A DNA stretch of 64,000 bases, taken from the NCBI GenBank assembly GCA_964016885.1, contig OZ024740.1, positions 131,750,001 through 131,814,000 of the forward strand, given 5' to 3'. Below the pieces are notes generated by a model. That model was not told the origin of the DNA and searched no databases. It worked only from the letters and a program-made list of their open reading frames with translations. The translations under genes and the position numbers were made by a program. Source of the DNA: Eledone cirrhosa. Lineage: Eukaryota. Position 1 is the first letter of the stretch; the number at the start of each line of letters is the position of its first letter. This document shows positions 7,209 to 55,902 of this stretch, piece after piece.

Positions 7209-7250
7209 CTATTACCGGTTTCAGCATTTATATGCTTTATCAAATGAGAG
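7209..7250 (-). ncRNA. hammerhead-like motif, U3-A8 core, weak stem I
   Basis: UUGAUAA-AGCAU(AUAA)AUGCU-GAAAC-CG-GUA. The mirror copy near 9292-9335 (+) is more decayed. Confidence 0.45.
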
Positions 7251-7439
7251 TGAAATGTATTAGTGTGGTGTCGCACATGTTAAACAGAAGGTGCAGAAAG
7301 AATAATGTTATATACAAACAAGGTTTAAGAAGTGAAAAGAAAAAAAAGAAAAATGGAAAAAAAACGTGCATAATGTGGTACGTAAAAAGTCAATGTGGAA
7401 GAAAACATAATGTCATAACATGCTCAACCACCTTGCAAC

Positions 7440-8878
7440 AACATTCAATAACGAACATACCCTACTTTTTAACCTTTGATATCATCAATTTATATTCCAA
7501 TATCCCACACAACCTAGGTATAGATGCAATACAATTTTGTATGGAAAATTTCCCTAGTGAACTTCCACAGCGCATCCCAAAAGAATTTGTGTTGGAAGGA
7601 CTCAAATTCGTCTTGTAAAACAATTTCTTCGAATTTAATGCCAAATACTACTGACAGAAATCTGGGACTGTCATGGCCACGAAAGTGGCCCCTTCATACG
7701 CCAACCTTGTCATGGGATATTTGGAAACCAGTCTCTACCGCAAACTTCTAGACAGATACGGCAACCACTTCCACCAACACATAGAAAAGAACTGGAAGAG
7801 ATATCTGGCCGACTGCTTCATCCTCTGGCATGAAAGTATAGATAGAATGTTTGAGTTCAAAACCCTTCTGAATAGACTCAACACTAACTTACACTTGACA
7901 ATGGATTACCGCCATGAACAACTCCCTTTCCTCGACATCCTCATCAAGAAAACAAACAACAAAATAGACACAGACATATACTAAAAACCCACAGACTCCA
8001 AACAATACCTTCCATTTAACTCGGGCCACCCTATACACACCAGAATGGCAATTCCTTATAAGCTAGCCAGAAGGATCTGCACAATAGATTCAGATAAATA
8101 CACATGCTACACACGACTAGAAGAATTTAAAAAACACACTTATTAGCCGAAAATACCCACCATCCCTAATCACCAAAGGATTTCAACGTGCCCTAAAACT
8201 AGACATCCAGGAACTCAGACACCCCAAACCCAGGAATGACCCGCAACAAAAACTCTACCATACATCTCCACACACAACCCCATCAGCTATGAGGCATTCG
8301 ACACCATCCCCCAGAACATTCCTTTACTAAAAAGAGACCCAAGAATGAACAATATCCTCCAAACACACAACATCATAAAGAGCAAAAGACAACCCAAATC
8401 CATAAAAAACATCCTCACACAAGCCAAAATCAAACAAACCCTCACAATGAACCATACAGTAACAAAATGCGGAAGGCCCAACTGGGGCATATGCATACAT
8501 TTAATAGAAGGTTCAACATTCCATTTTAAACAAGGACAACGTTTCACAGTTAAACACAACTTTACATGTACATCTGAAAACGTTATCTATGTTTTGACAA
8601 GCTCAGGGTGTCAAGAGCACTACATAGGAGAGATAAAAAACAGCCTCCGTCAACGTATGACCGTCCATAAATCACAAATTAAAATAGAGGAATGCAGAAA
8701 GATTGCATTTAGTGAACATATCGCCAATTGTGCTCTCAACGAACATCCAAACTTTCAAATGTTCCCCATTTACAAATTCATAAACAACGCTACTTTCATT
8801 CAACGTACCAATAAGGAAACACATTTCATTAATACATTTCAACCACTACTGAATGCTCTAAAAATCGGACCAATCTAA
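7440..8878 (+). pseudogene. PLE RT plus GIY-YIG endonuclease, with stops and frameshifts
   Basis: LTFDIINLYSNIPH; QKSGTVMATKVAPSYANL; WKRYLADCFI (decayed YxDD); LPFLDILI; CTSENVIYVLTSSGCQEHYIGE. Confidence 0.9.
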
Positions 8879-9669
8879 AACTGCACCAACCATCAAACAT
8901 TTACAAGAGTTATCTCCCTCACACCCTACCTAATCCTTTTTCTTAAATAAATAAAATATCACCCAGCAAGAATGGCTTCCCCCTCCATATTAACTCTCTA
9001 AAAAGGGAAATCATATCAAACCACAGCCCACCATTTGCCTCCTTCACGGAACCATGGTTAAACTAATCACTCTTGCGATATTAACACATTTTGAACTGCT
9101 TAACTTCAATGATTGTGCTTGTAAATAACATTATTGTTTCTTCCACATTGACTTTTACGTTCCACATTATGCACGTTTTTATTTTTTTTCATTTTTATTT
9201 TTTATTTTCACTTCTTAAACCTTGTTTGTATATAACATTATTCTTTCTGCACCTTCTGTTTAACATGTGCGACACCACACTAATACATTTCACTATCATT
9301 TGATTATGCATATAAATGCTGAAACCGGTAATAGACAATAATTAAATATATAAATAGATAATTAAATGCCATTGTTAAATAATAAATAAATGAACTAATA
9401 CCTTAACACTTCACGCAAAGTAATACATTTCGTTTTAATCACTTTCTAACCCAGAAAAAAGAGGGAGAGAGACAAAAAGGAAAAAAATATATTTTTCTTC
9501 CTCATAATCGTCTCTTCCTCCCTGTTTTCATATATATATATATATATATATATATATATATATATATATATATATATATATATATATCCTAACTCGTATG
9601 CTTCCTCTCCACATTTTATTATTATTATTATATATACATACATATATATATATATATATATATATATAT

Positions 9670-54221: not shown

Positions 54222-54528
54222 TATTGTTATACTGTGGGAGGGTCATGGTGCCAATAAGAAACACACGCACCAGTTGCTTTCACTTCAATTTATTATAATA
54301 AATTTATAATAAATTTATAAATTTATAAATTTCTGGTTGTGGAACCAACCAACCAACCAGAAATTTATAAATTTATAAATTTATTATAAATTTATTATAA
54401 TAAATTGAAGTGAAAGCAACTGGTGCGTGTGTTCCTTATTGGCAACATGACCCTCCCAAAGTAGAACAATATCGGTTTCAACACACGATTTCAGATAAAG
54501 AATCTTGCTAAACAAATTCAGAAACGAA
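54222..54528. mobile_element. minimal fold-back of the 3137-6403 PLE terminus
   Basis: Arms 54222-54337 and 54355-54470 plus a tail of about 58 bp. (TA)n both sides. Confidence 0.9.
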
Positions 54529-55018
54529 ATATATATATATATATATATATATATATATATATATATATATATATATATATATATATATATATATACATAC
54601 ATATATATGTGTGGGCATATGTGTGTGTGTATTTCTGTGAGAAACATTAGAAGGGATGAAGAAGATTATTTTCAATTACATGTGTCCTCCTAAAACTCTA
54701 CTCAACAGAGAGTCCACACGCCACACATACACACACACACACACACATATATATATATGTATATGTAAGTATGTTTTGAAAATGTGAGCGAGTTTGAAAT
54801 TGGAAATATAAGGTTTCACCGTAATTTTTGACTAAAGAAATGTTTTGCCTGATAGTGGGGTTTAGAACCCTCAGAGAAATGGAAAAAAGATGAGTATTGA
54901 CGTACATGGGAGTCGAACCTATATCTTTGGTTATCTGAATGGAAGGAGATGGGTTATGCTTTGGTATAATGATAGTACAGTGGTCTGGATAACCAAAGAT
55001 GTGGGTTTGACTCCCATG

Positions 55019-55902
55019 CAACTGCTCTGTATAATCATTTCCTCATTATTACTAGAATTCTATAATAATCAAACATTCCTGATTTTCAGGAAACAGGTGG
55101 AGTACTTAGCTTTGATAAGTACCAAAGAGTATGACACAGAGCTCTGTCTGCTCTATCTCCCCTGTTCGCTGAAAATTTAAAGTAAGTGAGACTGTCACTA
55201 CTCTAAAACAATAGCGTAACGTCTTCGAAATGCTTTTAATTAAGCATACAGTGTAATGCAAAATGCACTATATATATATATATCGCTATTTTAAAGCACC
55301 AATTCTAATTTTCAATTTCTGCTTGACCGGCAATCGCTCTGTATAATCAGTTCCTGATTATTAATAGAATTCTATAAGAATCAAACATTCATGGTTTTCA
55401 GCAAACGGGTGGAGTACTTAGCTTTGATAAGTAGCAACAAGTACGAAACAGAGCTCTGTCAGCGTGATCTCCCCTGTTTGCTGAAAATATAAAGTAAGTG
55501 AGACTGTCACTACTCTAAAACAATAGCGTAAGATCTTCGAAATGTGTTTAATTAAGCATAGAGTATATTGCAAAATACAATATATATACATTCATATATA
55601 TATATCGCTATTTCAGAGCACCAATTATAATTTTCAATTTCTGCTCGACCGCCAACTGCTATGTATAATCAGTTCCTGATTATACTAGAATTCTATAAGA
55701 ATCAAACATTCATGATTTTCAGCAAACAGGTGGAGTACTTAGCTTCGATATGTACCAAAACGTACGAAACAGAACTCTGTCATCTTTATCTCCCCAGTTT
55801 GCTGAACATTTAAAGTAAGGGAGACTGTCACTACTCTAAAACAATAGCGTAAGTTCTTCGAAATTCTTTTAATTAAGCATACAGTGTATTGCAAAACACA
55901 CC
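55019..55902 (+). repeat. tandem repeat of 312-322 bp (about 2.8 units), one hammerhead fold per unit (retrozyme-like)
   Basis: Units start at 55019, 55331 and 55653. HHR folds at 55108-55152, 55420-55464 and 55741-55785. Confidence 0.9.
55420..55464 (+). ncRNA. type I hammerhead, U3-A8 core, GUC site
   Basis: GCU-UUGAUAA-GUAG(CAACAA)GUAC-GAAA-CAGAGCUCUG-UC/AGC, nested in an outer stem of about 19 bp. Confidence 0.7.

What the first reader, a model, noticed from the sequence alone, without database searches (positions are those of the whole stretch)
7209..55464. C3-G8 replaced by U3-A8 in five unrelated hammerhead families
Seen: cores UUGAUAA (7237-7243, -), UUGAAAA (19641), UUGAAAA (26156), UUGAGAA (28983-28989, -) and UUGAUAA (55112, 55424), each set in a stem I/II/III hammerhead frame with otherwise dissimilar sequence. 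Established: the 3-8 pair is required for catalysis, and U3-A8 is a known but uncommon natural variant. Inference: paired changes in five families look like compensatory evolution in this AT-rich genome rather than decay, implying a hidden HHR population. Caveat: both changes are common transitions, and single-sided cases also occur (C3.A8 at 16833, U3.G8 near 2820).
Basis: partly seen in the sequence, partly recalled or inferred. Interest (0 to 1): 0.74.

Follow-up and report, generated by a model that had tools for sequence, protein, structure and literature searches.

The report
Swapped-core hammerheads of Penelope retroelements
All five motifs are hammerhead-shaped RNA motifs, predicted to cut themselves, at the ends of abundant Penelope-type jumping genes; their U-A core pair is an already published variant, but one family kept spreading with that pair mismatched before it was restored, so cutting is likely helpful rather than essential.

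Summary
All six cores are present and lie in type I hammerhead frames of Penelope-like elements (PLEs; families A-D) or a 312-bp retrozyme (E). U3-A8 is the family state, not decay: 96, 99 and 98 of the first 100 genome-wide matches in A, C and E. B and E have homologous C3-G8 sister families, so the double swap is real. In a 0.99-Mb sample, 34 of 171 cores are U3-A8. The variant is published for Schistosoma PLEs (PMC4209133). Two corrections. A and C are related (55% protein identity). Family D (28989, 16833) does not covary: A8 is fixed and about 1,100 copies carry C3·A8. These form a grade of subfamilies whose ORF stayed under purifying selection (9 nonsynonymous to 23 synonymous differences, p=7e-7); the youngest U3-A8 clade arose from them. 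So the mismatched intermediate is likely viable, which fits in-vitro data that PLE insertion needs no cleavage (PMC11167929). Cleavage is untested. This scan noted the same families and the mismatch phase before, on other pieces of this genome.

The parts
7209..7248 (-). Family A minimal type I hammerhead, U3-A8 (core 7243-7237), in the inverted 5' pseudo-LTR of a Neptune-type PLE
   Evidence: 96 of first 100 of 349 matches U3-A8
7440..8878 (+). Broken RT + GIY-YIG ORF of the family A element (start approximate)
   Evidence: CX4CxxC linker; Pfam gave no hit on these fragments
9295..9334 (+). Family A 3' pseudo-LTR hammerhead, single-copy decay U3·U8 (core 9300)
19634..19767 (+). Family B long-stem-II type I hammerhead, U3-A8 (core 19641, GAAA 19749), Hydra-type PLE end; endonuclease remnant ends near 19071
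21385..21430 (+). Decayed family C copy (core 21394, G5 changed)
23660..23710 (-). Decayed family C 3' copy (core 23700, G5 changed); endonuclease remnants at 24908-25092 (-)
26152..26189 (+). Family C minimal type I hammerhead, U3-A8 (core 26156), inverted copy of a Neptune-type PLE end
   Evidence: 67 of 11,492 matches lack U3; none of them C3-G8
28897..28994 (-). Family D extended type I hammerhead, U3-A8 (core 28989-28983), Hydra-clade PLE end; stem III damaged in this copy
16828..16925 (+). Family D hammerhead with C3·A8 mismatch (core 16833), member of the amplified mismatch grade
13875..13970 (+). Family D hammerhead, C3·A8 (core 13880)
12912..13008 (-). Family D hammerhead, C3·A8 (core 13003)
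15843..15939 (-). Family D hammerhead, C3·A8 (core 15934)
55019..55912 (+). Family E: 312-bp non-LTR retrozyme tandem, 2.8 units; U3-A8 cores at 55112, 55424 and a decayed one at 55745
   Evidence: (98 of first 100 of 166 U3-A8)
2812..2885 (+). Single decayed copy (U3·G8, core 2820) of a family whose other copies are C3-G8
   Evidence: 3 of 4 sampled copies C3-G8, 1 C3·U8
59105..59256 (+). C3-G8 sister of family B (core 59113; inverted twin core at 59100 on the minus strand): the in-window control for the swap

Best explanation
The motifs are type I hammerheads in the end repeats of four Penelope-like retroelement families and one retrozyme, U3-A8 is the inherited state of these families, and it likely arose several times from C3-G8 by two successive transitions through a mismatched intermediate that could still spread. 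Shown: family-level U3-A8 in A, B, C, E; C3-G8 homologues of B and E; in D a grade of C3·A8 source elements with a selected ORF, from which a U3-A8 clade descends. Inferred: the hammerhead trims or circularises element RNA (as dimers in A and C, whose stem III is a short palindrome), but copying by the element's RT and endonuclease works on uncut RNA too. Selection on the 3-8 pair is therefore weak. G8A can then rise in a source lineage, and C3U follows, favoured by a mutation bias towards A/T and probably by a modest gain in cleavage.
For: Unbiased patterns with N at 3 and 8: A 96, C 99, E 98 of the first 100 listed are U3-A8. C has 67 of 11,492 non-U3 matches, all A8. B: 2 U3-A8 rows align with 6 C3-G8 rows of three sister groups. 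E: 5 U3-A8 and 4 C3-G8 rows, with two-sided changes in all 4 stem II pairs. Sample: 127 C-G, 34 U-A, 4 U·G and 1 C·A of 171; changes at 3 or 8 are no commoner than at U4, G5, A6, A9 (7, 4, 6, 3). D: 52 C3·A8, 48 U3-A8, 0 G8 in the first 100 of 2,162 (counted by hand); 96 U3, 4 C3 in the first 100 of 2,389 with other N7; only 74 matches lack A8. End-repeat and ORF trees both place the C3 copies as a grade between two U3 groups. One clade of all U3 copies is rejected (delta logL 237), and so is a root at the young clade. Early versus late C3 ORFs differ at 9 nonsynonymous and 23 synonymous codons, against 206 and 75 for private changes. Private C>T is 0.0111 per site and T>C 0.0053. PMC11167929 (passages): single 3 or 8 mutants abolish PLE hammerhead cleavage but not insertion in vitro.
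Against: No cleavage assay and no RNA reads. In one deep scan only G3-C8 rescued the pair and U3-A8 was among the low-activity doubles (PMC9901934, passages), so U3-A8 may be weak in these contexts. The root of D is unresolved: inside the C3 grade is best (U3 fixed twice), but U3→C3→U3 is not rejected. A neutral C→T at one site over that interval has roughly a 10% chance (rough estimate), so the restoration alone does not show selection. No C3-G8 relative of D was found (0 of 30 loci of the related family kept a core). B counts come from similarity-ranked hits and are biased towards the query. 5 of the 14 C3 rows in the tree were picked for a sporadic change at position 8. A related family with a change in the GAAA box also amplified (5 loci), which points to loose constraint generally.
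Confidence: 0.68

Rival explanations
1. Strict compensation: cleavage is essential, U3-A8 is fully active, and mismatched intermediates are short-lived, in five independent families.
For: Family states are almost always paired: of the 28 seed groups sampled, 19 are C-G and 9 U-A, and only D holds a mismatched subfamily. Stem II covaries in E. Natural U3-A8 is reported and described as active in vitro (PMC3088659, passages).
Against: About 1,100 C3·A8 copies in at least three successive D subfamilies with a selected ORF. A and C share 55% protein identity and the same stem III.
Confidence: 0.12
2. Relic by mutation pressure: these hammerheads no longer cleave usefully, the fold is kept for another job (RT or protein binding), and U3-A8 is simply two common C>T/G>A changes.
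For: Twofold bias towards A/T. D mismatch phase. A family with a changed GAAA box. In A the hammerhead fold lies 6.3 kcal/mol above the minimum-energy fold of the one copy tested. Low activity of PLE minimal hammerheads in vitro (PMC4209133).
Against: U4, G5, A6, A9 and the GAAA box stay fixed across D subfamilies while N7 takes all four bases. Long-lived single-mismatch families are rare (1 of 28 groups). The end point is the Watson-Crick pair in B, E and D.
Confidence: 0.15
3. The C3·A8 motif of D is active after all, either through a protonated C·A wobble propped up by the extended stem I and long stem III, or by A-to-I editing at position 8 that would give a C-I pair.
For: D has the most complete architecture of the five. 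Tolerance of core changes depends on context (PMC3884650, passages). That editing is heavy in some molluscs is recalled, and the host taxon was not determined.
Against: In the folding model C3 favours a competing register: the hammerhead fold is 2.7 kcal/mol above the minimum for the C3 copy against 0.7 and 0.3 for two U3 copies (one copy each). Other single changes at 3 or 8 abolish cleavage (PMC11167929, PMC9901934). No RNA data; a paper search on hammerheads and inosine listed no natural case (listing only).
Confidence: 0.12
4. Independent decay of single C3-G8 copies by two common transitions.
For: True for 2820 only, a decayed copy of a C3-G8 family.
Against: Family states are U3-A8 in hundreds to thousands of copies.
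Confidence: 0.01

Closest known systems
U3-A8 minimal hammerheads of Cercyon PLEs, Schistosoma mansoni (Cervera and De la Pena 2014, PMC4209133; parts 1-2 of 4 read)
   Same: Type I hammerhead in PLE end repeats; U3-A8 core missed by the standard descriptor; a large hidden population (about 1,300 beside about 2,000 there); palindromic stem III.
   Different: Here several separate lineages (Neptune-type, Hydra-type, retrozyme) carry it, C3-G8 sisters are in hand for two, stems II reach 56-116 nt, and one family has an amplified C3·A8 grade. No such grade appears in the parts read; supplements were not seen.
Natural U3-A8 core variants (Perreault et al. 2011, PMC3088659; passages)
   Same: C3-G8 covaries to U3-A8 in several natural hammerheads; described as active in vitro.
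   Different: Scattered examples, no family history.
Hydra clade of PLEs (Craig et al. 2021, PMC8557442; passages and section 11)
   Same: D and B have the CxCX5C linker and CxxC/CxH motifs, D also RWK-like and DKT motifs; insertion in (TA)n; hammerheads present.
   Different: Core variants are not discussed in the text read; supplementary file S2 on hammerheads was not seen.
Metazoan non-LTR retrozymes (PMC7229834, passages; 10.64898/2026.07.22.740005, part 1 of 5)
   Same: E is a 312-320-bp, low-GC, non-coding tandem unit with one type I hammerhead per unit and PLE-like insertion ends.
   Different: U3-A8 core across at least three subfamilies; circular RNA not tested.
PAc, Anolis Poseidon PLE (PMC11167929; passages)
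   Same: Single changes at 3 or 8 kill cleavage but not insertion in vitro, which is what the D history implies.
   Different: That is a bench result with C3G/G8C; D is a natural lineage with C3·A8.

Membership tests
Type I hammerhead ribozyme | Core boxes N3-UGA-N-N8-A and GAAA with a UH site | tested here: met
   Family copies of A-E; some window copies are damaged
Type I hammerhead ribozyme | Three stems in type I order, with covariation | tested here: met
   Constrained folds lie 0.3-3.8 kcal/mol above the minimum for B, C, D, E and 6.3 for A; covariation counted for E; RNAalifold of D gave a competing fold
Type I hammerhead ribozyme | Watson-Crick 3-8 pair | tested here: met
   Met in A, B, C, E and the U3 groups of D
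Type I hammerhead ribozyme (C3·A8 grade of family D) | Watson-Crick 3-8 pair | tested here: not met
   52 of the first 100 of 2,162 matches are C3·A8
Type I hammerhead ribozyme | Self-cleavage | not testable with these tools
   No assay; no RNA run listed
Penelope-like element (A-D) | RT plus C-terminal GIY-YIG ORF upstream of the hammerhead | tested here: met
   ORFs read; named by motif and by similarity to the window PLE with Pfam RVT_1 (below cut-off) and GIY-YIG hits; B has only fragments
Penelope-like element (A-D) | Pseudo-LTR with inverted 5' copy and 3' tail, in (TA)n | tested here: met
Hydra clade (B, D) | CxCX5C linker, CxxC/CxH, RWK and DKT motifs | tested here: met
   against PMC8557442 section 11; RWK-like and DKT seen only in D; no tree with reference elements
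Neptune clade (A, C) | CX2-5CxxC linker before GIY-YIG; placement in an RT tree | tested here: inconclusive
   Linker present, but Nematis shares it and no reference tree was built
Metazoan non-LTR retrozyme (E) | About 300-bp non-coding tandem unit with one type I hammerhead each | tested here: met
Metazoan non-LTR retrozyme (E) | Expressed as circular RNA | not testable with these tools
   No RNA run in hand; the one run search used a family D query

The most novel reading that the evidence does not exclude
Family D preserves a compensatory substitution in a ribozyme's catalytic core caught in the act: an autonomous retroelement spread to about a thousand copies with a cleavage-dead C3·A8 core and then fixed U3 (once for certain, twice in parallel on the best-scoring root). 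That would be natural, in-vivo evidence that PLE hammerhead cleavage is dispensable yet selected, with every step available for assay.
Probability: 0.4. Interest if true: 0.62.

Novelty: new member of a known kind. Interest (0 to 1): 0.42.

Why it matters
Why PLEs carry hammerheads is an open question (PMC8557442 calls their function unclear). The finding as written is a further case of a published variant, with a practical lesson: C3-G8-only searches miss about a fifth of the hammerheads in this genome. The added value is family D and the B and E sister pairs. They give natural, near-isogenic C3-G8, C3·A8 and U3-A8 motifs with a known family history, so one set of cleavage and retrotransposition assays could show whether cleavage is needed and how an RNA active site crosses a broken-pair state.

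Tried and rejected
Rfam scan: no hammerhead among the 150 listed of 348 matches. My first strict scans missed B and D because of their long stem II. The idea that B lacks the GAAA box or is split by an intron was dropped when the box was found about 100 nt downstream. The idea that D is not a hammerhead was dropped when stem III and stem I were found. A search for a C3-G8 ancestor of D through a related family failed: 0 of 30 loci kept a core; the 10 C3-G8 matches among 74 non-A8 matches look like sporadic changes, and the two placed in the ORF tree fall in the C3·A8 grade. A search for C3-G8 relatives of A and C gave 12 matches (control 2); 2 are old C-type copies, one with an endonuclease closer to C than to A, and 2 others are junction artefacts; too few to settle whether A and C switched separately. 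My first reading of D as old U3 → C3 → young U3 rested on a root that I chose; outgroup tests left the root open. One search held three duplicated loci and was redone without them. One search was swamped by microsatellite hits and was redone. Sequencing runs: no RNA holder listed. Not held, so not read: Lünse 2017, Przybilski and Hammann 2007, Nelson and Uhlenbeck 2008, Martick and Scott 2006. Searches listed no paper on an amplified C3·A8 PLE subfamily.
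Full report
Setting. The window is 33% G+C and full of microsatellites. It lies in a 3.0-Gb animal assembly; the taxon was not determined. It holds broken PLE ORFs, one with Pfam RVT_1 (below cut-off) and GIY-YIG hits, and 38 hammerhead cores from 17 seed groups: 22 C3-G8, 9 U3-A8, 4 C3·A8 and 3 other singles.

Observation. A (7243, minus) and C (26156) are minimal motifs with a palindromic stem III. B (19641) has a stem II of about 100 nt and was resolved only from its family. 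D (28989, minus) is an extended motif with a 6-7-bp stem III, and 16833 is the same family. E (55112, 55424, decayed 55745) is a 312-bp tandem. The motif at 2820 is one decayed copy of a C3-G8 family.

Family state at 3 and 8. Whole-genome patterns left both positions free. A: 349 matches, first 100 listed = 96 U-A, 1 U·U, 1 C·A, 1 G·A, 1 U·G. C: 11,492 matches, first 100 = 99 U-A; 67 of all lack U3, all keep A8. E: 166 matches, first 100 = 98 U-A. B: 35 of 36 rows with a core are U-A and one is a C-G sister, but these rows were ranked by similarity to the query. Reversed controls gave 0. Together these patterns give a floor of about 15,000 U3-A8 copies. In 99 evenly spaced stretches (0.99 Mb; a 100th did not exist), homology to 35 seeds that I chose found 171 cores: 127 C-G (12 from one array), 34 U-A, 4 U·G, 1 C·A, 5 other. 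Changes at U4, G5, A6 and A9 numbered 7, 4, 6 and 3. Singles thus occur at the level of ordinary decay after insertion, and the covariation is between families. Families that I never saw are missing from this count.

Is it a swap between homologues? For B, three sister groups with the same long stem II and stem III are C3-G8, one of them in the window at 59113. For E, sister units and a more distant retrozyme are C3-G8; the 3-8 pair is U-A in 5 rows and C-G in 4, and all four stem II pairs show two-sided changes (related sequences can beat the shuffle control without structure). U3-A8 is therefore likely derived, separately, in B and E. A and C are both Neptune-type by their linker, share stem III and are 55% identical over 361 residues, against 24% between C and D. 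Two old C-type copies are C3-G8, one with an endonuclease closer to C than A, so one or two origins are possible. Further U3-A8 groups turned up outside the five.

Family D. D is an autonomous Hydra-clade PLE (PMC8557442 section 11). Position 8 is A throughout: 74 matches lack it, against 2,162 with G7 and 2,389 with other N7. Position 3 is C in 52 of the first 100 G7 matches and 4 of the first 100 others (hand counts), about 1,100 copies. A tree of 40 end repeats with 3 and 8 masked and a tree of 32 ORF copies (32 of 148 hammerhead rows had enough unique ORF) both show the C3 copies as a ladder between two U3 groups. One clade of all U3 copies is rejected, and so is a root at the young clade; a root inside the C3 grade scores best, a root on the other U3 side is not rejected (000 resamplings, five distant outgroups). 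So position 3 changed at least twice, and the youngest U3-A8 clade came from C3·A8 sources. Early (4) and late (6) C3 ORFs differ at 9 nonsynonymous and 23 synonymous of 329 codons, while private changes run 194 plus 12 stops to 75 (Fisher p=7e-7). The source elements were therefore making functional protein while they carried the mismatch. The other-U3 versus early-C3 comparison was not significant (8 to 7, p=0.13). Five of the 14 C3 rows were picked for a sporadic change at position 8. In the folding model C3 also favours a competing register.

Mechanism. Shown: the motifs, their family states, their carriers, the D ladder. Inferred: hammerheads process PLE or retrozyme RNA, as proposed in PMC4209133 (parts 1-2 read), but copying tolerates uncut RNA. 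In an Anolis PLE, single changes at 3 or 8 abolish cleavage and leave insertion intact in vitro (PMC11167929, passages). With weak selection, G8A can rise in a source lineage and C3U completes the swap; private changes in D favour C>T over T>C twofold. Against this: U3-A8 did not rescue in one deep scan (PMC9901934, passages), the restoration in D could be neutral, and no cleavage or RNA data exist.

What is known. U3-A8 is reported as a natural variant (PMC3088659, passages) and as a population of about 1,300 PLE-linked motifs in Schistosoma that the standard descriptor missed (PMC4209133). E matches metazoan non-LTR retrozymes (PMC7229834, passages; 10.64898/2026.07.22.740005, part 1 of 5). 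An octopus repeat annotation checked for comparison has no mention of ribozymes (PMC13282606, passages). Also seen as passages: PMC3884650, PMC6765202, PMC7151607. Seven searches listed no report of an amplified C3·A8 subfamily; four key biochemical papers were not held and no supplements were read, and these may bear on novelty. Earlier notes of this scan describe the same families and the mismatch phase on other pieces of this genome; I had reached that reading before opening them.

Verdict. 'Five unrelated, strictly compensated families' overstates it. The part worth an experiment is family D. Interest 0.42.

Noticed in passing
L293:895-2100, L151, L092, L127, L296: A Neptune-type PLE family related to A and C has U3-A8 plus a change in the GAAA box (C at position 13) in all 5 loci seen: a second amplified family with an altered core.
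   Followed up: partly
L322-L351 and window 12720, 15689, 28591, 58019: Many copies of D and of a related family begin inside stem II and so hold only the 3' half of the hammerhead; 0 of 30 loci of the related family (2,088 matches) kept a core.
   Followed up: partly
L102:3978, L237, L018:2753: A further minimal U3-A8 group with a 2-nt stem III; a similar C3-G8 group is at L160 and L256. Homology not tested.
   Followed up: no
L314, L319 (C3-G8) and L154 (U3-A8): One old family with both states among three copies at 76-81% identity.
   Followed up: partly
window 11551-12540: 428-bp tandem with a C3-G8 hammerhead per unit (cores 11801, 12229), a second retrozyme-like family.
   Followed up: no
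window 3326-6297 (-): Near-complete PLE with RT, GIY-YIG and a C3-G8 hammerhead at 3326 whose stem III is not palindromic.
   Followed up: partly
window 55500-55580: The E unit holds a second GAAA followed by a palindromic hairpin near its insertion end; this part is shared at 74% with the C3-G8 retrozyme in L128.
   Followed up: no
window 54962-55017: Weak tRNA-like Rfam match (31 bits) directly before the E tandem.
   Followed up: no
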